A stretch of DNA of 64,000 nt from Reclinomonas americana ATCC 50394. Taxonomy: Eukaryota. The notes below the pieces were generated by a model. That model saw only the letters and a list, made by a program, of their open reading frames with translations, searched no databases and was not told the origin of the DNA. The position numbers and the translations under genes are program-made. Shown here one piece after another: positions 12,601-57,129 of the stretch (position 1 is the stretch's first letter; the number at the start of each line of letters is the position of its first letter). The stretch lies in assembly GCA_048213135.1 (NCBI GenBank), contig PS015009.1:1302001-1366000 (forward strand), read 5' to 3'.

Positions 12601-13005
12601 GAAGGTGTAGGGTAATTCCTGAACTACCGAAAATATGTTTTCATCAAATAGCTTGTCCTCATGTGTTTCGCTGCCGCTTGGATAAAATAAATGCAGTTTT
12701 ACGCCCTCAAATGTTACTGACTTATTGCTGTTAATGAAAATAGCCATGTTCATGGCTTCTTTGATACGCTGGTTCAGAAACTCCATGAACTTATCCAACA
12801 ACTCCTTTTCGCTGCTGAACTTGCGTAATAGCTTTCTGTAATTGTCTTTGTTGAGGGTGGTGCTGCTGATGAAATGTTTCAGGTCTTCTACTACAAAGAA
12901 CTGTGCAGACACAGTATTAGCCTTTACTTCTTTATACCTCAGCCCGTCTGGTCTTTCGGTTAAAAAGTTGACTAAGTATTTATCTTGTAAGTCTAATTCT
13001 TTCAT
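9682..13005 (-). CDS. hsdR: Type I restriction endonuclease subunit R
   Basis: Nuclease motif RPDLSFFLNGIFLGYSELK, Walker A YAAGFGKS, LIDEIHRS, GFTATP, DKLQTGFDEP and QTISRVNR. Confidence 0.92.
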   Translation of the reverse strand: MKELDLQDKYLVNFLTERPDGLRYKEVKANTVSAQFFVVEDLKHFISSTTLNKDNYRKLLRKFSSEKELLDKFMEFLNQRIKEAMNMAIFINSNKSVTFEGVKLHLFYPSGSETHEDKLFDENIFSVVQELPYTFKHEGKQIFSFRPDLSFFLNGIFLGYSELKSNYNNQNARDNGRKKVAKDYLQAVQAYLEIADGNDISQTIRKEFLKIFEKAIHITSTDINDTYVIRNITNQFDEIKNTVTSDSYDFEPYNKKLFKDFKPYPLLNKAGNKTERFEEVFKALYDKKMIEKEILYYNFIERELVKKENSRGKEYKHNDGRLISPRPKQKFGADKVMSKINEFLEHEDEPDYFINKLRAELKAKGVGDAQAEELVAKRQKYQNNKTVYSLLLQYAAGFGKSNIIGWSALQLKDLRKDGEYVYDKVMLVVDRLQLRDQLDTKMHNMNIQKSMFTEAYNQKTFTDALKSDTRIVVVNLQKFASVKDVLSPEVVKKLATLRIAFLIDEIHRSNSGTQHEEMVSLFDELQASFDNSKDYKKQQKKKNLIIGFTATPSDHTLARFGEFNKYAEAEKIWVPFDSYTMREAIEDGYILNPIKGIVPVSAKMFFEIPDNELEGFEGDTGYEEIPDDTDTGIDAQGKKYAIRKKKIYLNSDRIEAISKFVVERLVSTVYHTIRGTAKAMLAVSSIKAAIKYKKFIDKYFAEIVKQKKYERFKDAPIYIVYSSDGQENQNANSLNGGLSEEKVLQNFAIKKNGLIIVVDKLQTGFDEPKLQTLFLDKEIRGINAIQTISRVNRTTKYKNDCKIIDFSYKNVNVKNIKEAFEHFSNVVVSDFDPLGDEAKLDIYYSALKQSEVYTVHVTNFIKYEKKELDISAIIEIENGFADFINTKKKEAKELKATINKYFKILNLIEFVIDLEPKFSEEYFLQFWRRFNNEYNNINKQDEVIDDVEIYFDNKIGIIAPTEYKEKVKGKPPINGGTNSTGDRQYKFDILKVIAKRNQEEEAIEELIKDFETKIEKLFEYVRTDEAGLRVIAKMQDEGSTFDDEEIYNDFAKIYRKFVRRNKDLGEFFIRETQDIIHQLCDDFERTLGGNDITNGLELPERPKPPKK

Positions 13006-13008
13006 GCC

Positions 13009-14358: not shown

Positions 14359-16430
14359 GCTGATAGCTCTTTTTCAAGTTTCTTTAATTCGTCTTCCAGT
14401 GCAGTCAAGCTGGAAGTAATTAAGGCAACGTCTTTTAGTTTCTCAGGCTTGTAAAAAACCTTGCTAAAGTTGACTTCTGCACCAATAACATTGTCTAAAT
14501 ATCTAAAGGGTTTGAATACATACTTAGCCATGAAAGCATCGATCCATTTTTGGTTTTCAGCTTCATCAGGTGAGTAAGGAATTATCTCATAGTCTTTTTG
14601 ATAATCCGGTGTTAGCTCCGCTGTAATTTCTATGTAAGCCTCTTTTTTTGCTGTTGCCTTCTTAAAGCTGCTTTTCAACAAAATTTTACCGCAGCCTAAT
14701 TCTTTTTTCTTACCCTTCGTTTCTTCAATCAAAGTGTCTTTATCTGCATCGTACCAATACACAGACTTATCGGTATAAACTTTCAGGTCGGTTTCTTTGT
14801 AGTCTAAGGCTGCAACTTTGGGGCTGATATTTTTTTCGTAATAGTCCAGGAGTGAAGTGTATTGCTTACTGTCAAACTCTGTTATTTCAAACTCCGTAAT
14901 TTCGGTTGTTGCATCTTCATCAATCTGTACAATTTTAACCGGGTCTAACTTTTGAGATTTTGCCCTTACTTCTTCACCGTCTTTGTTGATTTTTACTGGC
15001 AATAGGGTTTCAAATGTTTTTCCTTTTTCATCAATATTGGTAAGCATGATTGCCTGACGGTTGTAATAGAAGTACCACTTGTCAAAGACTTTAGAAAATT
15101 CATTGTCCCTGAACTCTGCTAATGCCTTTACAATGGCTTCCCTGTTTTCGAGTTCCATGTATTTACGTTTCTTACCTCTGCTTTTCTTTAATGGTTTGTA
15201 AAGCTCACTTGCATTGATAAGAATTATTTTGTCCTTACGTTTTTTTGCTTTGTTCTTATTGAATACCCACAAGTAAGTGTAAATGCCTGTGTTGAAAAAT
15301 TCATCTGTTGGCATCTGAATAATGGCTTCAACAATATCTTCATCCAAAAAGTATTTCCTGATGTTACTTTCACCACTTCCTGCATCACCACTAAACAATG
15401 TTGAGCCATTATGAACTACAACGGAAACTCCATCATCTGCTAATTGTGAAACGATGTGTTGTGTAAATAAAAATTGACCGTCTGAAATGGAAGGCAAATC
15501 AATAAACCTGCCTGTAGTGTCGTTCTCAATATCTTTTTTGTAACCTTTCCAATCAACACCGTAAGGTGGGTTTGCTACGACTATATCAAACTTCTTTTCA
15601 ATGAAAGAAATATTGGTGAGTGTATTTCCATAACGAATGTCCGCATCAACTCTAAACCTGCTTTCAATCTTTGCTAACGCATAAAGGCTGTCGCTCCAAT
15701 CTTCACCAAAGGTTTTTGTTGGTCGGTTGAAAGTGGCTTTGATATTGTCCTCCACACCAAACAACAAGTTACCGCCTCCACAAGTGGGGTCATAAATGGT
15801 AAGGAACTTACCGTTGTTGTCTAGCTTGGAAGTAATGATTTCAGAAATGAGGAAAATAATATCATCAGGTGTGTATTGCTCTCCGGCTGTTTCTGCTGAT
15901 ATATCAGCCCACTTGCGTTTGATGTGTTCTTCAAGTGTTGTTATTTCAGAGTTGTTGAACGGTGTTAAATCAATCTCACTCCATGCCTTGACTGTATCAA
16001 ACAGGATGCGTTTCTTTTTTAGTTGTCCGCTGATACCAGATATATCCAAAAACTTTTCTTCTTCAGTGCCTTTATCAACTCCCAACAAATATTTTGTTTC
16101 GGGGTCAAAGGCTTTTAGGTAAGCATGAAAATCTACATCAAAAGCCTTGTCATTTTTGCAGATGTCTTTAAGGGTTTTGTTTTCGCGAACTACAAAATCA
16201 TTGTACCCTAATCCATCCTCTTTAAACTCCTCAATGAAAGCATCTATATCACTTCTTCCAAAATCTTCTTCTAATGTCCTTGCATGGCGTATTAACCTAC
16301 TTTCAACCATGATAAGGGCAAAGTATGGCATCATGAATTTTGGGAAATCGCTTTGCTTAATTCCTGCACCGATTAATAAATCGGCTGTGCTCCAAACTTT
16401 GCCTTCGTATTGTAAAATATTTGCTGGCAT
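14355..16430 (-). CDS. hsdM: Type I restriction-modification N6-adenine methyltransferase subunit M
   Basis: AGEQYTP, SAM-binding YDPTCGGGNLL, catalytic ANPPY, LFSGDAGSGESNIR and FFNTGIYTY. Confidence 0.93.
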   Translation of the reverse strand: MPANILQYEGKVWSTADLLIGAGIKQSDFPKFMMPYFALIMVESRLIRHARTLEEDFGRSDIDAFIEEFKEDGLGYNDFVVRENKTLKDICKNDKAFDVDFHAYLKAFDPETKYLLGVDKGTEEEKFLDISGISGQLKKKRILFDTVKAWSEIDLTPFNNSEITTLEEHIKRKWADISAETAGEQYTPDDIIFLISEIITSKLDNNGKFLTIYDPTCGGGNLLFGVEDNIKATFNRPTKTFGEDWSDSLYALAKIESRFRVDADIRYGNTLTNISFIEKKFDIVVANPPYGVDWKGYKKDIENDTTGRFIDLPSISDGQFLFTQHIVSQLADDGVSVVVHNGSTLFSGDAGSGESNIRKYFLDEDIVEAIIQMPTDEFFNTGIYTYLWVFNKNKAKKRKDKIILINASELYKPLKKSRGKKRKYMELENREAIVKALAEFRDNEFSKVFDKWYFYYNRQAIMLTNIDEKGKTFETLLPVKINKDGEEVRAKSQKLDPVKIVQIDEDATTEITEFEITEFDSKQYTSLLDYYEKNISPKVAALDYKETDLKVYTDKSVYWYDADKDTLIEETKGKKKELGCGKILLKSSFKKATAKKEAYIEITAELTPDYQKDYEIIPYSPDEAENQKWIDAFMAKYVFKPFRYLDNVIGAEVNFSKVFYKPEKLKDVALITSSLTALEDELKKLEKELSA

Positions 16431-39163: not shown

Positions 39164-39186
39164 TTTTGCTTATTAATTATGCAAAA
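39164..39186. promoter_or_regulatory. Candidate NrtR operator (autoregulatory)
   Basis: TTTTGCTT-ATTAATT-ATGCAAAA overlaps the nrtR start codon. Confidence 0.7.
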
Positions 39187-39871
39187 CCGGTCATCGCAGA
39201 TAAAAGTTACGGTAGACGCCATTGTGTTTGGTTATTCCAAGCAGGATGGGGTGTCTGTCCTGCTCATCCAGCGCAAATATGATCCTTACAAAAATAAATG
39301 GGCCCTGCCCGGCGGTTTTGTGCTGGAAGAAGAGTCGCTTGAAGAAGCGACAAGAAGGGAATTGCAGGAGGAGACCGGCATTGAGGTCAATTACCTGGAA
39401 CAGTTGTATACTTTTGGTGAGCCGGGCCGCGATCCGAGGCAGCGTATTATTTCGGTGGCTTATTTCGGGCTGGTGAAAACATCGCAGTACCAGCAACTGA
39501 AGGCCAGTACCGATGCGGAAAATGCACAATGGTTTCCGTTAAGAAAGACCCCGGCCCTCGCTTTCGATCACCAGCAGATACTGAACACCGCTGTTGAACG
39601 GCTCCGCAGCAAACTCCGTTACCAGCCTATTGGTTTTGAATTGCTCGATAAAAAATTTCCCTTCTCTGACCTGGAGAAATTGTATCGAGATCTTTTGGAT
39701 AAAGACATCAACCGACGCAATTTCAGCAAGAAAATATTATCCTTTGGTTTACTGGAAGAGACCGGTGAATTATCGAAGCCCGAAGGCAAGGGGCGACCGA
39801 GCAAGATCTACCAGTTCAACACCAGGCGGTACAAAAGCCTGTTGAAAGAAGGTTTTCACTTCGAGATATGA
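39179..39871 (+). CDS. nrtR: NrtR-family regulator (Nudix plus winged helix)
   Basis: VTVDAIVFG, WALPGGFV..EESLEEATRRELQEETG, RDPRQRIIS, LAFDH, and a wHTH with NRRNFSKK and GRPSKIY. Confidence 0.88.
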   Translation: MQNRSSQIKVTVDAIVFGYSKQDGVSVLLIQRKYDPYKNKWALPGGFVLEEESLEEATRRELQEETGIEVNYLEQLYTFGEPGRDPRQRIISVAYFGLVKTSQYQQLKASTDAENAQWFPLRKTPALAFDHQQILNTAVERLRSKLRYQPIGFELLDKKFPFSDLEKLYRDLLDKDINRRNFSKKILSFGLLEETGELSKPEGKGRPSKIYQFNTRRYKSLLKEGFHFEI

Positions 39872-39877
39872 TCATTT

Positions 39878-40492
39878 ATGCTGCAGCCAATCTTTACAGA
39901 ACTCGTCGGGCGGTATACTGAGGACGAGGCCCTTATTCTGTCGTTCTGGAACGAGATAGAGAAAAAGTATTCCGGCAGGAAAAGATATTACCACAACCTT
40001 ACCCATTTGCAATCAATGTATGATGTTCTTTCCGGTTGCAAAGAAGAGATCCATGATTGGGACATCGTTCTTTTTTCCCTTTTCTACCACGATATCATAT
40101 ATAATGTGCTGCGCAGCGATAACGAAGAAAAGAGTGCAGCAATGGCCGTAACAAAACTTCGCCAGCTCAACATCACTGGAGACAGCATTGAAAAATGCAG
40201 GCAGTTAATATTAGCTACTAAAGCTCATTCAGCAGCAACCAATACCGATATACAGTTTTTTACCGATGCCGATCTTTCCATACTGGGCCAGCCCGCGGAA
40301 GTATATGAAGCATACAGTAAGCAGGTAAGAAAAGAGTATGCCATTTATCCGGATATGGTTTACAAGCCCGGCCGTAAAAAAGTGCTGGAGCATTTCCTGG
40401 GGATGAGAAAGATATACCAGTCTGCCTGGTTTTACAACAGCTACGAATCAACGGCCCGGCTCAATCTTCAAAAAGAACTGGAGCAATTATAG
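39878..40492 (+). CDS. HD-superfamily metal-dependent phosphohydrolase
   Basis: RYYHNLTH, FYHDIIY, ATKAH, DADLSILG and VRKEY. Confidence 0.85.
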   Translation: MLQPIFTELVGRYTEDEALILSFWNEIEKKYSGRKRYYHNLTHLQSMYDVLSGCKEEIHDWDIVLFSLFYHDIIYNVLRSDNEEKSAAMAVTKLRQLNITGDSIEKCRQLILATKAHSAATNTDIQFFTDADLSILGQPAEVYEAYSKQVRKEYAIYPDMVYKPGRKKVLEHFLGMRKIYQSAWFYNSYESTARLNLQKELEQL

Positions 40493-40500: not shown

Positions 40501-40573
40501 TTTTGCTTGATAAAAAAGCAAAATTTGGCGATTTCCGTTTTGCCGCTTATTTTTGCTTTCAATTGAAGCAAAA
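40501..40573. promoter_or_regulatory. Two candidate NrtR operators
   Basis: TTTTGCTT-GATAAAA-AAGCAAAA (40501-40523) and TTTTGCTT-TCAATTG-AAGCAAAA (40551-40573). Confidence 0.8.
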
Positions 40574-41211
40574 TGAAACAATACGAATATTATACAGAAC
40601 AGGTGAAGCGCCTTCCGGTGGAAGGTCAGCGGGTTATTGCTTCCGTTGAAAACGATCATATCATTGTATACCAGGCGTTCAATCCCCGCATTGCGGCTTA
40701 TGCAGTACAGCACCAGCAGTTCGGCGGGCCTGACTATAGTTTTAACCGGATGTCGTGGATCAAACCGGGATTCCTCTGGATGATGTACCGATCCGGCTGG
40801 GCCGGAAAACCCAACCAGGAAAGGGTTCTGGTAATCACGGTTCCGCTGGTTCATTTTAAAACTATACTGTCGGAAAGCACTTTTACCTCTTTTAACAGTG
40901 ATGATACATCAGCAAAAGAAAAATGGAAAGAACAATTATCGGAAACGGAAGTGCGGTTACAATGGGACCCTGATCATGATCCGTATGGTGTAAAGCAACA
41001 GCGGAAGGCCATACAACTGGGCATGAAAGGAGCAATATTAAAAAAGTTCACTTCGGAGTGGATCTCCCGTATAGAAGATATTACGCCTTTTGTGAAGGAG
41101 CAATACTTACATGTACAGCAAAACAACCTGGCACAGTTACGCGTTCCTTACGAGGAAGTGATAACAATAGGCGACGAACGATTAATTAAAAGATGCGGCA
41201 TTACTATATAA
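40573..41211 (+). CDS. DUF4291-family protein
   Basis: IVYQAF, RMSWIKPGFLWMMYRSGW, VRLQWDPDH and RKAIQLG. Confidence 0.85.
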   Translation: MKQYEYYTEQVKRLPVEGQRVIASVENDHIIVYQAFNPRIAAYAVQHQQFGGPDYSFNRMSWIKPGFLWMMYRSGWAGKPNQERVLVITVPLVHFKTILSESTFTSFNSDDTSAKEKWKEQLSETEVRLQWDPDHDPYGVKQQRKAIQLGMKGAILKKFTSEWISRIEDITPFVKEQYLHVQQNNLAQLRVPYEEVITIGDERLIKRCGITI

Positions 41212-41212
41212 C

Positions 41213-41593
41213 ATGAAATTAAAAACAAAAACACTATACCGTCCTGTAGGCGAAAGAGAATTGGAGCTGGTGGCCGCTTCCGGCTTCCGCAGGTTTCCGC
41301 CGCGGTTAAACTGGCAGCCCATATTTTACCCGGTGCTGAACCAGGCTTATGCGGAGCAAATTGCCCGGGAGTGGAATACGGATGATGCTTTTTCCGGTTA
41401 TGCCGGTCATGTTACAGCATTCGACCTGCCGGAAGATTACCTGTCGCAATTCCCGGTGCAACTGGTTGGCGGAGAGATCCACCAAGAGTTGTGGATACCC
41501 GCAGAAGAGCTGGATAACTTCAACGATCATATACAGGGCAATATCAGGGTGGTGATTTCTTTTTATGGTGATAAGCACAACAAAATGTTATGA
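41213..41593 (+). CDS. Conserved hypothetical protein, possible ADP-ribosyltransferase fold
   Basis: TLYRPVG..EL, FPPRL..QPIFYPVLN..YA and HQELWIPAEEL; the stop overlaps the NADAR start. Confidence 0.6.
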   Translation: MKLKTKTLYRPVGERELELVAASGFRRFPPRLNWQPIFYPVLNQAYAEQIAREWNTDDAFSGYAGHVTAFDLPEDYLSQFPVQLVGGEIHQELWIPAEELDNFNDHIQGNIRVVISFYGDKHNKML

Positions 41594-42135
41594 AATACAA
41601 TACCAACTGGTTAATACAATCCATCGATGCAGGAACAGATCCCAAATATCTTTTCTTCTGGGGGCATACGCCTAAGCGGAATGATATGCCCGACAAGTCC
41701 TGTTTCAGCCAATGGTACCCCTCTCCTTTTACAGTTGATGGCATTACCTATATGACGGCAGAACACTGGATGATGGCGGGGAAAGCACTTTTATTTAATG
41801 ACAAAGAGATCTTTGACCAGGTGATACAGGCTTCTTCTCCCGGGCTGGCCAAAGAACTGGGAAGGCAGGTTCGTGGATTCGACTCAGCCACCTGGCAGGA
41901 AAAAGCTTATGCACTGGTATGCGAAGGCAACCGGCACAAGTTCTCTTCCTGCGAATTATTAAAGACGTTCTTATTAAGAACAGGTAACAGCATACTCGTG
42001 GAAGCAAGTCCTTCCGATCCTGTATGGGGTATTGGTATGGCGCAGGACAATCCCTCTGCTACCAAGCCGCGGGAATGGAAAGGAACCAACTGGCTGGGGT
42101 TTGCGTTGATGGAAGTGAGGGATATATTACAATAA
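41590..42135 (+). CDS. NADAR (YbiA/DUF1768) family protein
   Basis: CFSQWYPSPF, TAEHWMMAGKA, AKELGRQV, LVEASPSDPVWGIG and GTNWLGFALMEVR. Confidence 0.92.
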   Translation: MKYNTNWLIQSIDAGTDPKYLFFWGHTPKRNDMPDKSCFSQWYPSPFTVDGITYMTAEHWMMAGKALLFNDKEIFDQVIQASSPGLAKELGRQVRGFDSATWQEKAYALVCEGNRHKFSSCELLKTFLLRTGNSILVEASPSDPVWGIGMAQDNPSATKPREWKGTNWLGFALMEVRDILQ

Positions 42136-42156
42136 CAGAAATTTTACAACACAACA

Positions 42157-42696
42157 ATGGAAAAACAACTTAAACATATCAGTAAATTTATGAGCCTGGT
42201 GCTGCGGCACAGGCCGGAACAAATCGGGCTTACGCTCGACGAAGAAGGATGGGCCGATGTACAGGAACTCATCAGCAAACTAAATGCCCATGGCGCAGGG
42301 CTTACCCCGGAACTGCTGGATACCGTGGTGGAGAATAACGATAAAAAACGTTTCGCTTTTAATAAGGATAAAACACGCATCCGCGCCAGCCAGGGGCATT
42401 CGGTGGCCATTGATCTGGCACTGGAACCTGTCACCCCTCCTGCCCTGCTTTACCATGGTACAGCGGAAAAGAACCGGGAATCCATTCTCAGCAAGGGCAT
42501 ACTCAAAGGCGAACGCCAGCATGTACACCTGAGCCACGATAAAGAGACGGCCGTAAAAGTAGGCTCCCGTCATGGCAAACCTTTTGTACTGCATATCGAT
42601 GCAGCAACCATGCACAACGACGGGCAGCTCTTCTACCTGTCGGCCAACGGTGTGTGGCTTACAGAATTTGTTGACCCCAAATACATCATACAGTGA
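42157..42696 (+). CDS. kptA: RNA 2'-phosphotransferase (Tpt1/KptA)
   Basis: SKFMSLVLRH, DKKRF, IRASQGHS, YHGT, RQHVHLS and NGVWL. Confidence 0.93.
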   Translation: MEKQLKHISKFMSLVLRHRPEQIGLTLDEEGWADVQELISKLNAHGAGLTPELLDTVVENNDKKRFAFNKDKTRIRASQGHSVAIDLALEPVTPPALLYHGTAEKNRESILSKGILKGERQHVHLSHDKETAVKVGSRHGKPFVLHIDAATMHNDGQLFYLSANGVWLTEFVDPKYIIQ

Positions 42697-43424
42697 GAAC
42701 ACTCGTGATTGGCGACATACACGGCGGGCTGAAAGCGTTGCTACAGGTTTTTGAGCGGGCACAGGTAACTGCTGCTGACCGCCTCATTTTCCTGGGTGAT
42801 TACGTGGATGGATGGAGCGAGTCAGCAGAACTGGTAAGTTATCTTATGGAACTATCCACAAAACAGGATTGTGTTTTCATAAAAGGCAACCACGACTGCT
42901 GGTGCGAGGACTGGCTGAGAACGGGCAACGCGGAACCTAAATGGCTTTTCCACGGCGGACAGTCCACCGTGGAAAGCTACTCCCGTTTGTCTGCAGAAAA
43001 AAAACTGCAACACCGCGTTTTCTTTGAGTCGATGCAGCAATACATGACAGACGACAGCAACCGGTTATTCATCCACGCAGGTTTTACTTCCATGCACGGG
43101 CCCGCAAACGAGGTGTATGATTCCAATTATAAATGGGACCGGACTTTGTGGGAAGTGGCGCTGGTGATGGACAAACGCATTCAAAAGGATTCGCTTCTTT
43201 TTCCGAAAAGACTGAAGCTGTTCAGTGAGATCTTCATCGGCCATACGCCAACCTTATATTATAATGTAGATGTACCCATGCAGGGTTGTAACGTTTGGAA
43301 TGTGGATACTGGCGCCGCTTTCACCGGTAAGTTGTCGGTACTCGACGCTGATACCAAACAATACTGGCAGAGTGATCCGGTGATGCAGCTCTATCCCGGT
43401 GAAACGGGCAGGAACAGGCCTTAG
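42693..43424 (+). CDS. Calcineurin-like metallophosphoesterase
   Basis: GDIHG, LGDYVDG, KGNHD, FIHAG, IGHTP and VDTGA. Confidence 0.92.
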   Translation: MRTLVIGDIHGGLKALLQVFERAQVTAADRLIFLGDYVDGWSESAELVSYLMELSTKQDCVFIKGNHDCWCEDWLRTGNAEPKWLFHGGQSTVESYSRLSAEKKLQHRVFFESMQQYMTDDSNRLFIHAGFTSMHGPANEVYDSNYKWDRTLWEVALVMDKRIQKDSLLFPKRLKLFSEIFIGHTPTLYYNVDVPMQGCNVWNVDTGAAFTGKLSVLDADTKQYWQSDPVMQLYPGETGRNRP

Positions 43425-47370: not shown

Positions 47371-47393
47371 TTTTGCTTATTTTTGAAGCAAAA
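47371..47393. promoter_or_regulatory. Candidate NrtR operator
   Basis: TTTTGCTT-ATTTTTG-AAGCAAAA, 45 bp upstream of the Prs-like gene. Confidence 0.8.
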
Positions 47394-47438
47394 TAAAAAT
47401 ATGATGTACCTTTACTCTGTGAAAATAAACAACTCGCG

Positions 47439-48236
47439 ATGAAAACGATCAATATTAATACACGGGAAAATGTGAAGATCACCATCTTTCCCGACGGACA
47501 ACCCCATGTGAACCTTGGCGACCTGGCAGAAGGAGAAGAAGTGAAACTGGTATGTTCCCTTACCGACACCGGTAAACTGCTGCAGTTGCTGGAAACCGCC
47601 AATGCTATCGACAACTGTTTTGCCCGCAAAAAAATGCTCGTCATCCCCTACCTGATGGCCGCCCGCTACGACCGGCTGATGCTGCCCGGCGACAGCCTCG
47701 ATCTTAAAGTAGTGGCCGACATGATCAACTACTGCGGCTTTGAAAAAGTGTACCTGTTCGATGTGCATTCCGGCGCCGCGACATTGCTCATCAAAAATGC
47801 CATTCCCATCAGCAATGAGGTCATGGTACGTCAGTACAACAGGGAAAATGCCATATTGCTTTGTCCGGATGAAGGCGCCGCCAAAAAGACCGGCGCTTAC
47901 CGCGACTGGAACCCGCATCTTGCCGAAATTGTGTATTGCCATAAAAGCCGCGACCTGGCCACGGGAAAGATCACCCTTTCTGTTCCCGACCCCGAAAAGT
48001 GCGAAGGCCGCAACTGCGTTATCATCGACGACATTTGCGACGGCGGCGGTACCTTCCTTGCCATTGCCGGGCAGGTGAAACCGGCACACCTTACACTCAT
48101 TGTAACACACGGCATTTTCTCCAAAGGATTTACGACACTGGAGCAACACTTCAGCGAGATCATTGTATCCGACAGCCTTTATAAAACGTACGACTCTCCT
48201 ATTGTAACCACTATACCTGTAACAGCAACACTTTAA
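47439..48236 (+). CDS. Ribose-phosphate pyrophosphokinase-like protein (short and divergent; possibly an Adps-type ADPR-PP synthetase)
   Basis: FPDGQPHV, IPYLMAARYDR, DVHS, PDEGA, PRT motif IIDDICDGGGTF and VTHGIFS. Confidence 0.85.
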   Translation: MKTININTRENVKITIFPDGQPHVNLGDLAEGEEVKLVCSLTDTGKLLQLLETANAIDNCFARKKMLVIPYLMAARYDRLMLPGDSLDLKVVADMINYCGFEKVYLFDVHSGAATLLIKNAIPISNEVMVRQYNRENAILLCPDEGAAKKTGAYRDWNPHLAEIVYCHKSRDLATGKITLSVPDPEKCEGRNCVIIDDICDGGGTFLAIAGQVKPAHLTLIVTHGIFSKGFTTLEQHFSEIIVSDSLYKTYDSPIVTTIPVTATL

Positions 48237-48246
48237 TTAACCCATC

Positions 48247-49701
48247 ATGAACATCAACCCTTTTCTCCTCACCGATTATTATAAAGTAGGTCATATTTTT
48301 CAATACCCCGAAAAAACGGAACTGGTATACAGTAATCTTACGCCCCGCAAAAGCCGGCTCAACGGTATTGACGAAATGGTGTTTTTCGGACTGCAGTATT
48401 TTGTAAAAGAATACCTGGTGGACTATTTCAATAAAACCTTTTTTGAGCAGCCCAAAGAAAAAGTAATCGCTGATTATAAACGCCGCATCGTCACTTCCCT
48501 TGGCGCACACCTGCCCAGCTACCAGCACCTTGAAGCCCTGCACGACCTGGGTTACCTGCCTGTAGAAATAAAAGCCCTCCCCGAAGGCAGCTGTGTACCC
48601 ATGCGGGTACCCTGCGTAACTCTTGTAAATACAGTTCCTGAATTTTACTGGATCACCAATTTCCTGGAAACACTGCTGAGCGCCGTTATCTGGCAGCCCT
48701 GCACCAGTGCCACTATTGCCCACAGCTACCGCAAACTGCTTGACCGCTATGCGGAGGAAACCGGTGTGGACAAAGCCTTTGTACAATGGCAGGGGCACGA
48801 CTTCTCTTTCCGCGGCATGAGTTCACTGGAAACGGCTGTTACCAGCGGTATGGGTCACCTGCTCAGTTTTACCGGTACCGATACCATTCCTGCTATTGAT
48901 GCACTGGAACAATATTATGGAGCTGACGCAGAAAAAGAACTCATCGGCGGAAGCGTGGCCGCCACCGAGCACAGTGTTATGTGCAGCGGCAGCCGCGATG
49001 GTGAATTGGAAACATTCAAAAGACTGGTCACTGAAGTCTACCCTTCCGGCATCATCAGCATTGTGAGTGACACCTGGGATTTGTGGAAAGTATGTACCGA
49101 ATACCTGCCCGCATTAAAAGAGATCATTCTTGCCCGTAATGGTAAAGTAGTGATCCGCCCCGACAGCGGCGACCCGGTTAAGATCATCTGCGGCGATCCC
49201 AACGGCGCAACAGAAGTACAACGCAAAGGCGTAGTGGAATTGCTGTGGGATGTGTTTGGCGGTACAGTTACAGATAAAGGATATAAAATGCTCGACGGGC
49301 ACATCGGCGCTATCTATGGCGACAGCATCAACATTGAAAGGGCAACGGCCATTTGCGAAGGACTGAAAGCGAAAGGTTTTGCCAGCCAGGTGGTTTTCGG
49401 TATCGGCAGCTTCACGTACCAGTACAATACCCGCGACACATTCGGTACAGCTATGAAAGCCACCTATGTAGTAATTGATGGTGAAGGACGTGAGATCTTT
49501 AAGAACCCTGTTACCGACGATGGCACCAAACGCTCTGCCACCGGTCTTTTGCAGGTAAAGAAAGAAAACGGCACCTATGTATTGCATGACCAGGTGGGAT
49601 GGGAAGAAGAGAAAGACAGCGAGTTGAAAACGGTGTTTAAAAATGGTATATTAGTAAAAGAACATACACTTGCCGGAATAAGGGCAAGGCTCCACAGTTA
49701 A
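48247..49701 (+). CDS. Nicotinamide phosphoribosyltransferase-family protein (NadV-like or Namat-like)
   Basis: TDYYKVGH..QYP, HDFSFRG, GTDT, SVAATEHSVM, SIVSDTWD, VIRPDSGDP, IYGDSI and TRDTFG. Confidence 0.9.
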   Translation: MNINPFLLTDYYKVGHIFQYPEKTELVYSNLTPRKSRLNGIDEMVFFGLQYFVKEYLVDYFNKTFFEQPKEKVIADYKRRIVTSLGAHLPSYQHLEALHDLGYLPVEIKALPEGSCVPMRVPCVTLVNTVPEFYWITNFLETLLSAVIWQPCTSATIAHSYRKLLDRYAEETGVDKAFVQWQGHDFSFRGMSSLETAVTSGMGHLLSFTGTDTIPAIDALEQYYGADAEKELIGGSVAATEHSVMCSGSRDGELETFKRLVTEVYPSGIISIVSDTWDLWKVCTEYLPALKEIILARNGKVVIRPDSGDPVKIICGDPNGATEVQRKGVVELLWDVFGGTVTDKGYKMLDGHIGAIYGDSINIERATAICEGLKAKGFASQVVFGIGSFTYQYNTRDTFGTAMKATYVVIDGEGREIFKNPVTDDGTKRSATGLLQVKKENGTYVLHDQVGWEEEKDSELKTVFKNGILVKEHTLAGIRARLHS

Positions 49702-49720
49702 CCTTGGTAAAACAATCCGT

Positions 49721-52483
49721 ATGAACAAAAGGACTATCGAAGACATTGCTTATATATTCAGAAAAGCAAAAGAAGAAGGAAAACCCCGTCCCATCGTTTT
49801 TTTAGGTGCGGGAGCATCAGCGAGTGCTGGTATACCGCTTACCGGTAAAATTATTGAAGACATTCTGGAAAAGCACAGCGATATGCCGGCGATCCAGCGC
49901 TTAAACGAAGAAGAAAAGAAAGACTATTATACTTTAATGAGTGCCCTATCTGCCGAACAGCGGAGAAGCCTTTTTCATAGTTATGTAACCTCTGAAGATG
50001 TAAAGATCAATGTTACTCATATCTACCTTGCGCAATTGCTAAAAGAGGGCTATGTCGATTATATCCTGACGGTAAATTTTGACGACCTCGCACTCAAGGC
50101 CTGTGCCCTGTTCAACTTTATCCCCCCAGTGTATGATGTTTCGATACTGAAAGACTTTACGACAACTACATTCCAGAAAGAATCGGTAACCTACTTGCAT
50201 GGACAACACCATGGTCAGTGGTTGCTAAATGCCAAGGGAGAGCTCGATAAAGTAAAAACCGCTGTCCCAAAAATATTTGAACGCATTTGCAACGGACGCA
50301 CCTGGATCATTGTAGGATATAAGGGCGATGATGAAATACTGGAAGAGATTGCGAAGCTGGGCAGTTTTGAGAACGAGTTATATTGGATTGGATATGAAAA
50401 AGAAGTGCCATCAGCTAATGTAAAATCAAAGTTGCTGGACATAGAGCTTATGAATACCTATTGGGTTTCTGACTATAATGCAGATTCCTTTTTCCTCAAA
50501 CTACACTCTGAGTTAGGGATGCATACCCCGGAATTTTTTAATAAGCCCTTTACCTTCCTCAGCAACCTAATTGGTAAAATTGTTGATATAGACGTTTTAG
50601 CCAGTAAGGATGAGTTGTATAAAATACCCAATGAGCGATTAGCAACTTCAAAAAAATGGATTAGTGACGCGATTGAGAAATATGAAAACAGGGAATCACT
50701 GGAGAAATTCAGGCAAGCGATTATTGAAGACACAATTAAAGGAAATTATGATAATGCTCTGTTCTATTTAAAAGAGGTTAATGATGGGAAATATCCCGGA
50801 GCCAAAAAAGAGTTGAGTGATTTATTTTTAGACTGGGGAGTTACTATTCATGAAAAAAATGAGCCCGATTTTAGTATCGAAAACCTGGAACAGGCTATAG
50901 AAAAGTATAAAACGGCAACGGAAATAAATCCAAAAAATGACTCCGCATTTTATAACTGGGGGAACGCACTATCTGATTTGGCCAAAATAAAAAATGACTC
51001 TGCCATTTTTGAACAAATCTGTGAAAAATATAAAACAGCAACAGAAATAAATCCAAAAAACGATTCTGCATTTTATAACTGGGGGAATACATTATCTGAT
51101 TTGGCCAAAATAAAAAATGATCCCGTTATTTTTGAACAAGTCTGTGAAAAATATACGAAAGCAACAGAAATAAATTCATTGGATGACTCTGCATTCAATA
51201 ATTGGGGAAGTGCATTATCTGAGTTAGCTAAAATAAAAAATGATCCTATTATTTTTGAGCAGGCTTGCGAAAAGTATAAAACAGCAACGGAAATAAATCC
51301 AAAAAATGACCCCGCTTTCTATAATTGGGGGAGCGCTTTGTCCCATATAGCAAAAGAGAAAGGAGCCCCTGAAGTTTTTGAACAAGCCTTTGAAAAATAC
51401 AAAACAGCAACGGAAATAAATCCAAAAGATGATTCTTCTTTTAATAATTGGGGAAGTTCTTTAGCGGATTTAGCCAAAATAAAAAACGATCCCACCATTT
51501 TTGAACAGGCCTTTAAAAAGTTCAAGTTTGCAACAGAAATAAACAACAGGAATGATCATGCCTTCTATAATTGGGGAAATGCTTTGTCAGGTTTAGCCAA
51601 AATAAAAAACGACCTCGCCATTTTTGAGCAAGCAATCGAAAAATACAAATTTGCAACAGAAATAAATTCAAAAGATGATTCTTCTTTAAACAATTGGGGA
51701 AGTTCTTTAGCGGATTTAGCCAAAATAAAAAACGACTCCTCTTTTCTTGAGCAGGCTATTGAAAAGTTTAAAGCTGCAATAGAAATAAATCCAGAAAATG
51801 ATTCCTCTTTCAATAACTGGGGAAGTGCGTTGTTTAATTTGGCCAAAATAAATAATGATCCCATATATTTTGAACGGGCATGCGAGAAATATAAAATTGC
51901 AACAGAAATAAATCCAAAAGACGATTCTTTTTTCAATAACTGGGGAATTGCTCTGGTAAACTGGGCCGAAATAAAAAATGACCTATCGATTTCTGAACAA
52001 GCTTGCGAAAAATTTAAAATTGCAACGGAAATAAATCCACAAAATGTTTCCGCATTCGATAGTTGGGGTAGCCTTTTGTCTAAATTCGCCAGAATTAATA
52101 AAGATGCTAATCTGTTTAATATGGCCTTCGAAAAATATAATATTGTGGTTACTACAGACCCTAATAATTCTACGGCATTTTATAACTGGGCATATGCACT
52201 TAGCCATTACTCCAAATTGCTGAATGGAAAGGATCGCCAGGATTCGATCATTTCCGCTAATACTATGGCTGAAAAAGCTTTTAGCCTTGATGGGGCTGCA
52301 TATAATCTTAGCTGCTCATACGCTCTACTAGGCAACAAAGAAAAAGCTATACAATATCTTAAACAAAGCTTTGATAATAATGAAGTACTACCAGATTATG
52401 TCCTACAAGATGAAGACTGGGCCGATTTCTTAAACGACAAAGACTTCAAGGCCATCATCCAATCCGCAAAAAACAAAAACTAA
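49721..52483 (+). CDS. SIR2-like domain protein with a long TPR array
   Basis: FLGAGASASAGIP, LTVNFDD, YLHG and IVGY, then about 11 41-aa TPR-like repeats and a terminal YNLSCSYAL..DEDW cap. Confidence 0.88.
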   Translation: MNKRTIEDIAYIFRKAKEEGKPRPIVFLGAGASASAGIPLTGKIIEDILEKHSDMPAIQRLNEEEKKDYYTLMSALSAEQRRSLFHSYVTSEDVKINVTHIYLAQLLKEGYVDYILTVNFDDLALKACALFNFIPPVYDVSILKDFTTTTFQKESVTYLHGQHHGQWLLNAKGELDKVKTAVPKIFERICNGRTWIIVGYKGDDEILEEIAKLGSFENELYWIGYEKEVPSANVKSKLLDIELMNTYWVSDYNADSFFLKLHSELGMHTPEFFNKPFTFLSNLIGKIVDIDVLASKDELYKIPNERLATSKKWISDAIEKYENRESLEKFRQAIIEDTIKGNYDNALFYLKEVNDGKYPGAKKELSDLFLDWGVTIHEKNEPDFSIENLEQAIEKYKTATEINPKNDSAFYNWGNALSDLAKIKNDSAIFEQICEKYKTATEINPKNDSAFYNWGNTLSDLAKIKNDPVIFEQVCEKYTKATEINSLDDSAFNNWGSALSELAKIKNDPIIFEQACEKYKTATEINPKNDPAFYNWGSALSHIAKEKGAPEVFEQAFEKYKTATEINPKDDSSFNNWGSSLADLAKIKNDPTIFEQAFKKFKFATEINNRNDHAFYNWGNALSGLAKIKNDLAIFEQAIEKYKFATEINSKDDSSLNNWGSSLADLAKIKNDSSFLEQAIEKFKAAIEINPENDSSFNNWGSALFNLAKINNDPIYFERACEKYKIATEINPKDDSFFNNWGIALVNWAEIKNDLSISEQACEKFKIATEINPQNVSAFDSWGSLLSKFARINKDANLFNMAFEKYNIVVTTDPNNSTAFYNWAYALSHYSKLLNGKDRQDSIISANTMAEKAFSLDGAAYNLSCSYALLGNKEKAIQYLKQSFDNNEVLPDYVLQDEDWADFLNDKDFKAIIQSAKNKN
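50890..52200 (+). repeat. Intragenic 123-bp tandem repeats encoding TPR units
   Basis: GAAATAAATCCAAAA at 50921 and 51044, with related copies continuing in 123-bp steps. Confidence 0.85.
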
Positions 52484-52486
52484 CCA

Positions 52487-52960
52487 TTACTTATTCCTCT
52501 TCATCGGAAACAACCTCGATCTTTCCACCCCATTCACCATACCGGATATCTCCGCCAGCAGTGAATCCTTTCCCACCTGTGTGTACGAGATCTTCTGCGG
52601 AAAATCATGCCCCGGGTTCTCAAACTCCATTTCCTTATCGGTGAGTTTTATCATTTTAAAAGAAACCGGTTGCCCGCCGTTCTGGTTTTTTACTGTTGGA
52701 ATATAAAACAGTTCGTTGCCCCGCTGCAGCAGCTGAATGGTCTCCATCACCATGGTATCTTTCCCATTGATGAAAAAACTCTTACCGGCAAAAAGGCTGT
52801 CGTTCTGCACGGCCCAATGTTCATGCACACCTGATTTACTCACCCAGTCGCCCACCAGCCAGCGGGCTTTGTTAAGGGGCTTATCCTGCCGGCCGGTGGC
52901 CGCGACAGAAAACAGGATAATAAGGATGACAACAGCTGAAGATGAAATGGTTTTGTACAT
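52487..52960 (-). CDS. Exported DUF6265-like protein
   Basis: Signal peptide, WLVGDW and FENPGHDFPQKISY. Confidence 0.75.
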   Translation of the reverse strand: MYKTISSSAVVILIILFSVAATGRQDKPLNKARWLVGDWVSKSGVHEHWAVQNDSLFAGKSFFINGKDTMVMETIQLLQRGNELFYIPTVKNQNGGQPVSFKMIKLTDKEMEFENPGHDFPQKISYTQVGKDSLLAEISGMVNGVERSRLFPMKRNK

Positions 52961-53978: not shown

Positions 53979-54482
53979 ATGAGCAACAGCAGCAGCATTG
54001 CCCCGGGCAAATTACTGGTGAGCCAGCATGGCATGGCACAGGTATGGAAAGATGAAACCACCGGCCAGCAAGCGCTTCACGCGGCAAAGGTTTTTTCAGC
54101 CGGTGAAGTGATCAGCGCTTTTGCACCCGCTTCTGTGCATACCACCCCAAGTTATCTTACGGTGCAAGCAGGCAACCAGCAACACATCACCTTACAGCCG
54201 GAATTCCTGCAATACGTGAACCACAGTTGCCATCCGAATGTGTTCTTTGATACGGACGCCATGCAACTGGTATGCCTGGAAGATGTACTGCCCGGCGAAG
54301 AGTTCCGTTTCTTCTATCCTTCTACGGAATGGGATATGGCACAACCCTTCGTTTGCAACTGCGGCAACAGCAACTGCCTGCAACTGATCACCGGCGCTGT
54401 TCACCTGTCAGTTGATACACTCAGCCGCTACCGGCTCAGCTCCTTTATTAAAAACCAGGTAAAACAAAAACTGTCCCTGTAA
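53979..54482 (+). CDS. Stand-alone SET-domain protein with post-SET motif
   Basis: YVNHSCHPN, GEEFRFFY and post-SET FVCNCGNSNC. Confidence 0.88.
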   Translation: MSNSSSIAPGKLLVSQHGMAQVWKDETTGQQALHAAKVFSAGEVISAFAPASVHTTPSYLTVQAGNQQHITLQPEFLQYVNHSCHPNVFFDTDAMQLVCLEDVLPGEEFRFFYPSTEWDMAQPFVCNCGNSNCLQLITGAVHLSVDTLSRYRLSSFIKNQVKQKLSL

Positions 54483-54489
54483 CCAAAAC

Positions 54490-55647
54490 ATGTCGCCCGC
54501 TAATCCTTTCATATCGGCCATACCCCTGAAACAACTGTATGTTTGGGTACTGGCACCGCAACTGGAAAGCGAGGACCCCAATATTGACTACTATTACGAC
54601 TTCACACAAAGTATTGCCGAGTACACTAAAACGTTCAACGAACTGGGCGTAGACTGGAAATGGCAGCCGGTGGACATGAAGACGTATACCAAAGTCATCA
54701 ACCACATTGCCCGCGAAAACGACAAAGGCAATAAGTTACACGTGGTGTTCAACCTTTGTGATGGCGATGAAGTGAATGGAACGCCGGGCATTTCCGTGGT
54801 AAAATTGCTGGAAGAAAAAGGATTGATCTATACGGGTGCCGATGAATATTTTTACCGCATCACCACTTCCAAAATACCCATGAAGCGGGCTTTTGAGGAA
54901 GCCGCCGTTGCTACCCCGGAATGGGAAGCCATTCATTCGCGGGAGCAGGACCTGTCGGGCATGGTGGAAAAACTGGGTTCACCGCTTATCGTTAAGCCAT
55001 CAGTTTCGGGAGGCAGCATGGGCGTGGGTACCCAGAATGTAGTAAGCACAACAACGGAGTTGCAGCAGCAGGTAGAAAAAATGTTTGAAGGTTACCGCGG
55101 ATGGGAGCTCACCAGCGATGGCATCATTGCCGAATCTTTCATCAATGGTCCTGAATATACCGTGCTTATTGCTGGCTCATACAACGACCCCGGTAAAGCC
55201 CGTATTTATGAACCGGTGGAAAGGGTTTTTCATGAATCGCTGCCCGACCGGGAAAAATTCCTGAGCTTCGACAGGCTGTGGGAAATTTATGAAGAAGAAA
55301 CCGCCATGCCGGGCAATGAGAATTTTTATGAGTACGCTCTGCCCGATCCGGCCCTCGTAGATGAAATAAAAAAACTGAGCTGGGATGCTTATGTGGCTAC
55401 CAAAGGAAGGGGCTATACCCGTGTAGATTTGCGCAGGGATAAAGTAACCGGTAAAATATATGTACTGGAAGTGAATGCACAATGTGGTTTGAGTGAAGAT
55501 GAGGATTATACTTCCATCGGCGCTATTTTGCGGCTGAGTGGTAAAACTTTTTCGCAGCTGGTGGTGGCCATCATCAACGATGCTTACCAGCGCAAACAAA
55601 AGCAGAAACAAAAGACGGCGGCCAGGTCGGCCTCGGCGAATAAATAA
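54490..55647 (+). CDS. ATP-grasp ligase (D-Ala-D-Ala ligase-like)
   Basis: VFNLCDG, YTGA, PLIVKPSVSGGSMGV, ESFINGPEYTV, GYTRVDLR and VLEVN. Confidence 0.85.
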   Translation: MSPANPFISAIPLKQLYVWVLAPQLESEDPNIDYYYDFTQSIAEYTKTFNELGVDWKWQPVDMKTYTKVINHIARENDKGNKLHVVFNLCDGDEVNGTPGISVVKLLEEKGLIYTGADEYFYRITTSKIPMKRAFEEAAVATPEWEAIHSREQDLSGMVEKLGSPLIVKPSVSGGSMGVGTQNVVSTTTELQQQVEKMFEGYRGWELTSDGIIAESFINGPEYTVLIAGSYNDPGKARIYEPVERVFHESLPDREKFLSFDRLWEIYEEETAMPGNENFYEYALPDPALVDEIKKLSWDAYVATKGRGYTRVDLRRDKVTGKIYVLEVNAQCGLSEDEDYTSIGAILRLSGKTFSQLVVAIINDAYQRKQKQKQKTAARSASANK

Positions 55648-55701
55648 ACCAACCAAATTACAGGGGCGGCTTTGCAGAACAGCAGCGGCTCTGCAAGGAA
55701 A

Positions 55702-57129
55702 ATGAAAATCTGTGTTCTTCAGCCCGACTATTCCACTTCCGATGTGGATTACCAGTATTACGATCCGGCACGCGATCTCAGCCATTTAATGCCCGAAGCG
55801 GAATTCACGCATGTGCTGCTGAACAAACTCACCACCTACAAACAACTCAAGGAATTAAAAAAGCAAGGCTTCGACATTTTCGTCAACCTCTGCGAAGGCT
55901 ACCTGGAGTGGAGCATCCCTTCCATTGATGTGATCAATACCATGGAGTTGCTCGATCTTCCTTTCACCGGTCCTACATCTTTATTATACGATCCGCCCAA
56001 ACCATTGATGAAATACGTCGCCTATGCCGAGGGCATCGGCACACCTGCTTATGCACTGGTGAATGATGTGGCGGATGTGGAAACAGAATGCACCCATTTG
56101 CAATACCCGCTCTTTGTAAAGCCTGCCAAAGCCGGCGACAGCCTTGGGGTAGACGACAAAAGCCTGGTGCATAATATAGAAGAATTAAAAGCAAAGGTGA
56201 GCGCCATCATCGCTGAATACGGCCCTTTGCTGGTTGAAGAATATATCAGCGGAAGAGAGTTCACCGTTATGGTAGCCGCCAATGATGACGGTAAAACGGT
56301 GACCACTTTCAAGCCGGTGGAATATATTTTTCCGGGTGAATTTGCCTTCAAGACCTATGCGCTCAAAACTTCCGAACTGCACCCTGATGCGAATATTCCC
56401 TGCAAGGACCCCGAACTGGAACAACAACTCCGCGAAGCCGCCATCCGCATCTTCCGTGGTTTCGGCGGCGTGGGTTATGCCCGCCTCGACTTCAGGGTGA
56501 ACGATAACAACGATATTTTCTTCCTTGAAATCAACTTTACCTGCTCCGTTTTTTACAAAGACGGGTACGAAGGCAGTGCCGATTATATTCTCCGCCACGA
56601 TGGTTTCGGCCAGTCCGCTTTCCTCCGTCACATCATCGCCGAAGGAATGTCCAGGCACTTACGCAGGCAGAAAAAATATACTATGAAGGGCAATTCCATC
56701 TCGGGTTACGGCATTTATGCCAACCAGGATATGGTGCCCAACGAGGTGATTTTCAAGGGAGAAGAAATGGCCCAGCGCATGGTAACCCGCCGCTGGGTGG
56801 AGCAGAACTGGAATATTAAGGAAAAAGAAATATTTAGAAAGTACGCCTATCCGCTCAGCAATGAGGTATTTTTGCTGTGGGATAATGATCCGGCCGGGTG
56901 GGCGCCGCAGAATCACAGCTGCAACCCCAATACCGCCTATGAAGGTTTAAATGTTATAGCGCTTCGGGCTATACGCAAAGGAGAAGAACTAACCCTCGAC
57001 TATGCCTGCTTCCTCGACGAACATATGGAACCGTTCCATTGCCAATGCGGATCTGCCCAATGCCGTGGTCTTGTTACCGGTATCACCGGCAATTCGGTAA
57101 CAAAAAGAGAAAACAAGGCACACGGTTAA
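55702..57129 (+). CDS. ATP-grasp ligase fused to a C-terminal SET/post-SET domain
   Basis: PLFVKP, EEYISGREFTV, GYARLDFR and FLEIN, then GYGIYA, QNHSCNPN, GEELTLDY and CQCGSAQCRG. Confidence 0.88.
   Translation: MKICVLQPDYSTSDVDYQYYDPARDLSHLMPEAEFTHVLLNKLTTYKQLKELKKQGFDIFVNLCEGYLEWSIPSIDVINTMELLDLPFTGPTSLLYDPPKPLMKYVAYAEGIGTPAYALVNDVADVETECTHLQYPLFVKPAKAGDSLGVDDKSLVHNIEELKAKVSAIIAEYGPLLVEEYISGREFTVMVAANDDGKTVTTFKPVEYIFPGEFAFKTYALKTSELHPDANIPCKDPELEQQLREAAIRIFRGFGGVGYARLDFRVNDNNDIFFLEINFTCSVFYKDGYEGSADYILRHDGFGQSAFLRHIIAEGMSRHLRRQKKYTMKGNSISGYGIYANQDMVPNEVIFKGEEMAQRMVTRRWVEQNWNIKEKEIFRKYAYPLSNEVFLLWDNDPAGWAPQNHSCNPNTAYEGLNVIALRAIRKGEELTLDYACFLDEHMEPFHCQCGSAQCRGLVTGITGNSVTKRENKAHG

What the first reader, a model, noticed from the sequence alone, without database searches (positions are those of the whole stretch)
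47371..52483. Chromosomal NARP1-like NAD-reconstitution pair in one operon with a SIR2-TPR putative NADase
Seen: a Prs-like gene, a NAMPT-like gene and a SIR2-TPR gene lie on one strand with 10- and 19-bp gaps, behind a palindromic operator. The Prs-like protein is short (265 aa) and divergent (AARYDR, DDICDGG). The NAMPT-like protein has YYKVGH..YSNLTPR / HDFSFRG rather than the SYK.SH..SYIESR / HDFG.RG pattern I associate with classical NadV. I see no NMN adenylyltransferase in the window. Established: phage NARP1 uses a PRPS homolog (Adps) and a NAMPT homolog (Namat) to rebuild NAD+ directly from ADP-ribose and nicotinamide, and defence-type SIR2 domains cleave NAD+ into those same products. 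Inference: this may be a bacterial NAD destroy-and-rebuild module, giving recovery from or self-protection against its own SIR2 effector or foreign NADase toxins.
Basis: partly seen in the sequence, partly recalled or inferred. Interest (0 to 1): 0.85.

Follow-up and report, generated by a model that had tools for sequence, protein, structure and literature searches.

The report
NAD-rebuilding operon with swappable SIR2 gene
This bacterium carries a chromosomal copy of the phage two-enzyme pathway that rebuilds NAD+ from ADP-ribose and nicotinamide, probably switched on by ADP-ribose together with ADP-ribose clean-up genes; the neighbouring putative NAD-cutting SIR2-TPR gene is an optional, strain-variable passenger whose relatives keep landing in such operons.

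Summary
The three genes, the 10/19-bp gaps and the palindrome are real. The pair is Adps + Namat (NARP1) by sequence: Namat is 60% identical to SPbetaL1 Namat, keeps 20 of 21 ligand/catalytic sites and the clamp GSFTYQYNTRD. Chromosomal NARP1 is already published. The palindrome occurs four times in the window, always before an nrtR, ADP-ribose clean-up or adps gene, so it is probably an NrtR operator; 18 of 18 family loci join nrtR, adps and namat. The scan noted this NrtR-NARP1 link before on other DNA.

A dedicated 'destroy-and-rebuild' trio is not supported. SIR2-TPR is low-GC, lies beside 0 of 18 related pairs, and 3 of 4 laid runs of ~99%-identical strains skip it exactly (49647-52500). 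Its clade is still not randomly placed: 7 of 9 other members with known context sit in NrtR/ADP-ribose operons, against 0 of 44 outside the clade. Five such genomes showed no Namat.

Best reading: an ADP-ribose-induced NAD-recycling regulon carrying an exchangeable, DSR2-like NADase gene. No activity was assayed.

The parts
47371..47393 (.). Palindromic operator TTTTGCTT-N7-AAGCAAAA, predicted NrtR site; overlaps a possible Bacteroidota -33 box, with a -7-like TACCTTTA at 47407 (promoter consensus recalled)
47439..48236 (+). adps: short PRPS-like ADP-ribose pyrophosphokinase, 265 aa (F17, R76, H110, D144, K169, DDICDGGGTF; about 50 aa shorter than housekeeping Prs)
48247..49701 (+). namat: nicotinamide ADP-ribose transferase, 484 aa; clamp R37 plus GSFTYQYNTRD (387-397). 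The last 55 bp belong to the strain-variable block
49721..52483 (+). SIR2-TPR, 920 aa: defence-type SIR2 domain (GAGAS 29-33, N119, H160, D204; K201 where 115 of 120 homologs have S) followed by about 11 tandem 41-aa TPR-like repeats; GC 34-41%
49647..52500 (.). Strain-variable block (namat 3' end, SIR2-TPR, last 14 bp of the convergent DUF6265 gene), replaced by 158 other bases in three other strains
   Evidence: tables 5 and 8
39164..39186 (.). Second copy of the operator, directly before nrtR (predicted autoregulation)
39179..39871 (+). nrtR: Nudix plus winged-helix, ADP-ribose-responsive repressor family
39878..40492 (+). 204-aa gene after nrtR, HD-like motif by eye, no Pfam or NCBIfam hit
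40501..40573 (.). Tandem operators (40501, 40551; 50 bp apart). The same tandem pair precedes adps in the three closest relatives
40573..43424 (+). Co-regulated operon: DUF4291 (40573-41211), 126-aa conserved orf (41213-41593), NADAR (41590-42135), KptA/Tpt1 (42157-42696), calcineurin-like phosphoesterase (42693-43424)

Best explanation
A chromosomal NARP1 (Adps + Namat) that is the NAD-recycling arm of an ADP-ribose-responsive NrtR regulon in a Chitinophagaceae-like bacterium. Inferred mechanism: ADP-ribosylating or NAD-cleaving stress (rival toxins, phage enzymes, KptA RNA repair) and the regulon's own hydrolases release ADP-ribose; ADP-ribose lifts NrtR from its four operators; Adps converts ADPR + ATP to ADPR-PP; Namat joins it to nicotinamide, giving NAD+ and removing the inducer. 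SIR2-TPR is an exchangeable cassette gene, most likely a single-gene, DSR2-like sensor-NADase for phage defence, swapped in or out by recombination in the flanking genes. Its clade favours NrtR operons but is not tied to NARP1. Shown here: sequence signatures, trees, operators, gene neighbourhoods, strain polymorphism. Inferred: all activities, NrtR binding, co-transcription, any defence role.
For: Namat: E 7e-190 to the SPbetaL1 Namat structure against about 1e-74 to human NAMPT; 20 of 21 ligand/catalytic sites and the published clamp motif; groups with phage Namat at 100/99. Adps groups away from Prs, is short as Adps are, and a housekeeping prs exists elsewhere in the assembly. Operator: 4 against 0.10 expected, 4 of only 5 places found in the 108-Mb assembly, conserved before nrtR/adps in relatives; related sites with the published GT-N7-AC core in 20 of 24 upstream regions. 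18 of 18 Namat-clade family loci hold nrtR + adps, 12 of 18 also NADAR, KptA, macro, PARG or ARH. Clamp-less NAMPTs of the same family pair instead with NadM-Nudix-like genes in 9 of 10 loci examined, and no genome of 251 had both types. SIR2-TPR: GC3 0.30-0.43 against 0.53-0.61; skipped in 3 of 4 laid runs; beside 0 of 18 pairs.
Against: No enzyme, binding or RNA data. Namat also makes NMN from PRPP in vitro, and the assembly has PncC and NadD, so ordinary NMN salvage cannot be excluded in vivo. The Adps tree was a quick run with long-branch warnings and SH-aLRT 93; identity to phage Adps is only 28-37% against 28% to Prs. The operator core is TT-N7-AA rather than GT-N7-AC. The 7-of-9 enrichment of the SIR2-TPR clade in these operons and the Namat-like tail inside the swapped block suggest more than hitch-hiking.
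Confidence: 0.68

Rival explanations
1. ADP-ribose alarm circuit: SIR2-TPR is a functional accessory of NrtR regulons. Its TPRs sense a foreign protein, SIR2 makes a limited burst of ADP-ribose that derepresses NrtR (and more SIR2-TPR), the clean-up enzymes are induced, and NARP1, where present, resets NAD+.
For: 5 of 5 SIR2-TPR hits among 240 genomes of one Chryseobacterium-like genus lie inside the ADP-ribose operon, at two different positions. 7 of 9 context-known members of the window's clade are in such operons, 0 of 44 outside it. The window is a third position. The window subclade has K/R at the Ser of the NAD-phosphate loop, compatible with altered activity.
Against: Rare (5 of 240; 2 of 251 in the window's family) and strain-variable, so the regulon works without it. 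These operons carry much other variable cargo; exchange through shared flanking genes would give the same pattern. The seven loci represent two or three insertion events from one genus-like group, not seven.
Confidence: 0.15
2. First reader's module: Adps-Namat is there specifically to protect against, or recover from, the adjacent SIR2-TPR NADase (a dedicated destroy-and-rebuild unit).
For: One strand, 19-bp gap, no terminator-like site on +. Substrates match in principle; Paenibacillus NARP1 neutralises SPARSA in E. coli. The swapped block carries its own Namat-like C-terminus, so the donor may have had namat next to SIR2-TPR.
Against: 0 of 18 related pairs have it; 0 of 82 SIR2-TPR loci have adps or namat (46 had at least 2.5 kb upstream); five operon-embedded SIR2-TPR genomes showed no Namat; near-identical strains keep the pair without it.
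Confidence: 0.07
3. Ordinary prs-nadV nicotinamide salvage as read in 2008: a second Prs supplies PRPP, NadV makes NMN, PncC/NadD/NadE finish NAD+; SIR2-TPR is unrelated.
For: Rodionov 2008 lists nrtR-prs-nadV regulons, including Cytophaga. Namat keeps NMN activity. PncC and NadD are present. Catalytic residues are shared with Prs.
Against: The full adenine clamp is retained (both aromatic positions and the loop Arg in 18 of 18 family homologs); true NAMPT-type genes in the family look different and travel with NadM-Nudix; a normal prs exists.
Confidence: 0.1

Closest known systems
NARP1 of phages SPbetaL1, FADO and ICP1 (Osterman 2024, bioRxiv 10.1101/2024.02.11.579819; PMC12774641; PMC13586617)
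   Same: adps-namat order; Namat 60% and 57% identical to SPbetaL1 and FADO; clamp intact; short Adps with catalytic Lys and PP loop.
   Different: Chromosomal, no phage genes among the neighbours scanned; under a predicted NrtR operator; followed by a SIR2 gene.
Bacterial chromosomal NARP1 (Paenibacillus foliorum, PMC12774641; non-mobile NARP1 in 10.1101/2024.08.21.608784)
   Same: Same pair in a bacterial chromosome; shown active in vitro and against SPARSA.
   Different: Those papers leave the physiological role open; the sections read do not describe NrtR control or ADP-ribose clean-up operons.
NrtR-regulated prs-nadV operons (Rodionov 2008, PMC2330246)
   Same: nrtR, 21-bp palindrome, second prs paralog plus nadV; ADP-ribose released Shewanella NrtR from the prs-nadV site in vitro.
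   Different: Read there as PRPP/NMN salvage, with the second prs called unexpected. Here the enzymes carry Adps/Namat signatures. I did not obtain the Shewanella or Cytophaga sequences.
Defence-type SIR2 NADases: DSR2, SPARSA GsSir2, KomC
   Same: Asn-His dyad and GYxGxD loop; best solved relative GsSir2 (E 3e-11); SIR2 plus alpha-solenoid architecture with whole-length Foldseek hits to DSR2 (E 1e-8, TM 0.23).
   Different: Distinct TPR-repeat family; PADLOC matches cover only the SIR2 domain; no partner gene; K201 in place of the loop Ser.
NARP1-AP (10.64898/2026.01.28.702374)
   Same: NARP1 extended by enzymes that feed it ADP-ribose; macro and phosphoesterase genes occur in the related operons.
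   Different: No macro gene in this window's two operons; a phosphatase role for the calcineurin-like gene is only inferred.

Membership tests
Namat (NARP1) | Clamp helix motif GS-aromatic-[TS]-aromatic-[QN]-aromatic-[NV]-TRD | tested here: met
   GSFTYQYNTRD, identical to SPbetaL1
Namat (NARP1) | Clamp loop stacking residue (SPbetaL1 R40) and catalytic core | tested here: met
   R37; 20 of 21 sites identical, A362 is S as in FADO
Namat (NARP1) | Clade with phage Namat, apart from NAMPT | tested here: met
   100/99; the outgroup is uncharacterised family homologs, midpoint root
Adps (NARP1) | Short PRPS fold lacking the C-terminal alpha11-12 module; Lys185, Asp212/213/216, Phe221 | tested here: met
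   265 aa against 317; K169, D197/198/201, F206; F92 is M, F223 is A. Judged by length and alignment, not by a model
Adps (NARP1) | Clade with phage Adps, separate from Prs; Namat in the vicinity | tested here: met
   Prs rows split off at SH-aLRT 93, with long-branch warnings; adjacent namat
NARP1 | ADPR + ATP to ADPR-PP to NAD+ activity | not testable with these tools
   needs enzyme assay
NrtR regulon | Nudix-wHTH regulator and 21-bp palindromes before its own and target genes | tested here: met
NrtR regulon | GT-N7-AC core | tested here: inconclusive
   Window clade has TT-N7-AA; relatives have GT-N7-AC in the same frame and one site is a hybrid; the paper allows divergent motifs
NrtR regulon | ADP-ribose-dependent release from DNA | not testable with these tools
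   needs EMSA
Defence-type SIR2 NADase | Asn-His dyad and NAD-binding motifs | tested here: met
   N119 and H160, each in 120 of 120 homologs, aligning with the GsSir2 motifs
Defence-type SIR2 NADase | Ser of the GYS loop (GsSir2 S227) | tested here: inconclusive
   K201 here; S227A kept activity in one paper and lost much of it in another
DSR2 | Full-length homology to DSR2 | tested here: not met
   No DSR model in PADLOC hits, no DSR2 sequence hit, only TM 0.23: works like, not a member
Conserved NARP1 + SIR2-TPR module | Conserved linkage across relatives | tested here: not met
   0 of 18, 0 of 82, skipped in 3 of 4 runs
Canonical NadV/NAMPT salvage | Clamp-less helix (GGALLQK.DRD type) with NadM partner | tested here: not met
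   no NadM-Nudix hit in the assembly with one query

The most novel reading that the evidence does not exclude
A closed ADP-ribose signalling loop: a TPR-gated SIR2 enzyme writes an ADP-ribose alarm on sensing a phage or toxin protein, NrtR reads it and induces de-ADP-ribosylation, RNA-repair and NAD-rebuilding genes, and Adps-Namat erases the signal by remaking NAD+. That would be a survivable, self-resetting NAD-based immune response rather than abortive infection, and would give chromosomal NARP1 a defined role.
Probability: 0.15. Interest if true: 0.85.

Novelty: new variant of a known kind. Interest (0 to 1): 0.5.

Why it matters
The role of bacterial NARP1 is an open question in the papers read. 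The anatomy here gives a testable answer: it is one of two interchangeable ADP-ribose-recycling cassettes (Adps-Namat or NadM-Nudix-NAMPT) in an NrtR regulon for undoing ADP-ribosylation. This would also explain the 'second prs' that puzzled the 2008 NrtR study. Three searches found no paper making the NrtR-NARP1 link (open-access library only), though this scan noted it before on other DNA. New here: natural near-isogenic strains with and without SIR2-TPR, and an untested SIR2-TPR clade that keeps entering these operons, which makes an NADase placed under its own product's control directly testable.

Tried and rejected
Independent promoter for SIR2-TPR: a sigma70-like site at 49624-49652 is at chance level (16 sites against 11.5 +/- 4.1), and no Bacteroidota-type -7 box was found in 49400-49725; rejected as evidence either way. 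Prophage origin: no phage genes among neighbours scanned; no SIR2-TPR relative in viral contigs (0 of 43 candidates). Assembly artefact: unlikely, a 920-aa protein with 8 substitutions lies on another public contig; its context could not be seen. The single-protein scan of species genomes gave only 3 loci. Class-wide SIR2 search: 2 of 351 genomes, distant and not in such operons. Relatives of the closest genome: Namat in 7 of 141, SIR2 in 1 of 141, overlapping the earlier sample. ESM Atlas returned only uncharacterised SIR2-TPR clusters. DinB-cNMP genes precede both the window's adps and the L063 homolog (46-51% identity); treated as probable coincidence. No paper held SIR2 + tetratricopeptide + defense system + Flavobacterium. 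Supplements of PMC2330246 (NrtR site table) could not be read and bioRxiv supplements (Osterman Table S1) were closed; both may list Bacteroidota sites or genomes. No complex prediction was run: Adps and Namat form no stable complex.
Full report
Observation. The three ORFs, gaps and motifs are as described. The window lies on a contig of over 1.3 Mb within a 108-Mb, 16,441-contig assembly. Its closest Adps relatives are from Terrimonas and Puia MAGs (64-69%), so the bacterium is Chitinophagaceae-like (inference). Neighbours scanned are ordinary chromosomal genes.

The pair is NARP1 by sequence. Namat matches the SPbetaL1 Namat structure at E 7e-190 and human NAMPT at about 1e-74. Against the residues named in PMC12774641 (introduction, results and discussion read), plus the catalytic His that I added, 20 of 21 positions are identical, including R37 and GSFTYQYNTRD. 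In a 36-row tree it falls with five phage Namat-like proteins and 18 family homologs at 100/99, apart from 12 other homologs. My strict motif matched 6 of those 18; the other 12 have Glu at one spacer position but keep both aromatic residues. Adps keeps the ICP1 Adps catalytic positions (PMC13586617, most results sections read), has Phe where Prs has Leu after the PP loop, and is 265 aa against 317 aa. It groups away from 7 Prs rows at SH-aLRT 93 in a quick tree with long-branch warnings, 7 family rows dropped for time. A housekeeping prs exists on contig C2, and 4 of 4 Namat-clade genomes tested have both paralogs while one NAMPT-type genome has one. Chromosomal NARP1 is known and was shown active (sections or passages read).

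The palindrome is most likely an NrtR operator. It occurs 4 times in the window against 0.10 expected: before nrtR, twice before a DUF4291-orf-NADAR-KptA-phosphoesterase operon, and before adps. Only 5 places were found in the whole assembly, a lower bound. In the closest relatives these genes form one operon, with the same tandem operators before adps; here it is split in two, 4 kb apart. Related sites with the GT-N7-AC core lie in 20 of 24 upstream regions examined, matching PMC2330246 (passages and one section read), where ADP-ribose released NrtR from a prs-nadV site.

Family survey. Of 251 sampled family genomes, 46 had a NAMPT-like match: 18 whole and 1 split Namat-clade, 25 NAMPT-type, 2 others; none had both types. 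All 18 whole loci hold nrtR, adps and namat; 12 also hold NADAR, KptA, macro, PARG or ARH. Of 10 NAMPT-type loci examined (of 25), all lack the clamp, none has adps within 1.5 kb, and 9 follow a NadM-Nudix-like gene (hits below NCBIfam cut-offs). Two alternative recycling cassettes thus fill one slot, which argues for a general ADP-ribose-salvage role.

SIR2-TPR is a variable cassette. GC is 0.41 (SIR2) and 0.34 (TPR), GC3 0.43 and 0.30, against 0.49-0.51 and 0.53-0.61 for the pair. None of the 18 loci has it, and none of 131 neighbouring ORFs scanned had a SIR2 or TIR Pfam hit. It was found in 2 of 251 family genomes, neither with a Namat-clade gene. Among 82 SIR2-TPR loci none carries adps or namat; 46 had at least 2.5 kb upstream. 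In 3 of 4 laid runs, from three studies, single contigs about 99% identical to the flanks join 49646 to 52501 with 158 other bases between. The joints fall inside namat (codon 467) and inside the convergent DUF6265 gene. The window's namat tail still resembles other Namat tails, which suggests allele replacement by recombination. The direction is unknown, and the breakpoints may be blurred by local divergence.

Evidence against pure chance. The two closest metagenome loci have SIR2-TPR within an NrtR/NADAR/PARG/sirtuin/ARH/KptA-type operon. In the genus of G345 (Chryseobacterium-like, inferred from named hits), 5 of 240 genomes carry it, all 5 inside that operon, at two positions. Those five showed only a roughly 400-aa PncB-like gene (name inferred) and no Namat. 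In a FastTree of SIR2 domains, 7 of 9 other context-known members of the window's 23-row clade (support 99) are in such operons, against 0 of 44 locus rows outside; 34 of 80 metagenome loci were dropped for short flanks or matches, two of which have a macro gene downstream. The link is therefore to NrtR/ADP-ribose operons, not to NARP1, and rests on two or three events plus this one.

Is it an NADase? N119 and H160 are invariant in 120 of 120 homologs. The best solved relative is SPARSA GsSir2, where the dyad is essential (passages read). The model (pLDDT 86) is a SIR2 domain plus alpha-solenoid, hitting TPR proteins first and DSR2 weakly. K201 replaces a Ser found in 115 of 120 homologs; the nearest homologs have K or R, and two papers disagree on the equivalent Ser. 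Activity is likely but not shown.

Caveat on the NMN route. nadD lies 5 kb beyond the window and PncC/CinA on C2 (same organism inferred from GC and the Prs tree). Namat was the only PF04095 hit in the assembly and no NadM-Nudix was found with one query. nadE was not searched.

Verdict. A real NARP1 operon in a predicted NrtR regulon, with an exchangeable SIR2-TPR. I stated this reading before consulting the scan's notes; they show the NrtR-NARP1 idea on other DNA and nothing like this SIR2-TPR. New variant of a known kind; interest 0.5.

Noticed in passing
window 53979-57129 (+): Three-gene cluster: SET-domain protein, D-Ala-D-Ala-ligase-like ATP-grasp protein, and an ATP-grasp-SET fusion; possible peptide ligation/methylation module.
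   Followed up: no
window 9284-16430 (-): Low-GC (35-40%) type I restriction-modification island, hsdM-hsdS-hsdR plus a 132-aa orf.
   Followed up: partly
window 230-2611 (+): AAA_11/AAA_12 helicase with MTES_1575 nuclease and WGR domains, followed by a 773-aa gene with no Pfam hit.
   Followed up: no
window 41213-41593 (+): 126-aa orf with no Pfam or NCBIfam hit, conserved (52-74%) in NrtR/ADP-ribose operons of many relatives; candidate uncharacterised ADP-ribose-handling protein, as is DUF4291.
   Followed up: partly
L029-L038: Chitinophagaceae NAMPT-type genes follow a divergent ~300-aa NadM-Nudix-like gene below all NCBIfam cut-offs, often with the same nrtR/NADAR/ARH/PARG neighbours.
   Followed up: yes
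L027, L028: A third NAMPT-like clade (41-44% identity) with neither clamp motif nor adps/nadM neighbours, in two small genomes.
   Followed up: no
PDB 9ke8: A Namat-like solved sequence (E 1e-143) whose clamp reads GAQTYQRNTRD, lacking both adenine-stacking aromatics; I recall it as Haemophilus ducreyi NadV (not checked), which would be a reversion to NAMPT.
   Followed up: no
L039:8584-9033; L044:7481-7954: A nucleoside 2-deoxyribosyltransferase-like gene (PF15891) inside two NARP1/NrtR operons.
   Followed up: no
G000 contigs C1, C2, C696, C163, C494: The 108-Mb assembly mixes organisms: long bacterial contigs (GC about 47%), a 65%-GC contig with another Prs, and split Prs matches that look intron-like.
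   Followed up: no
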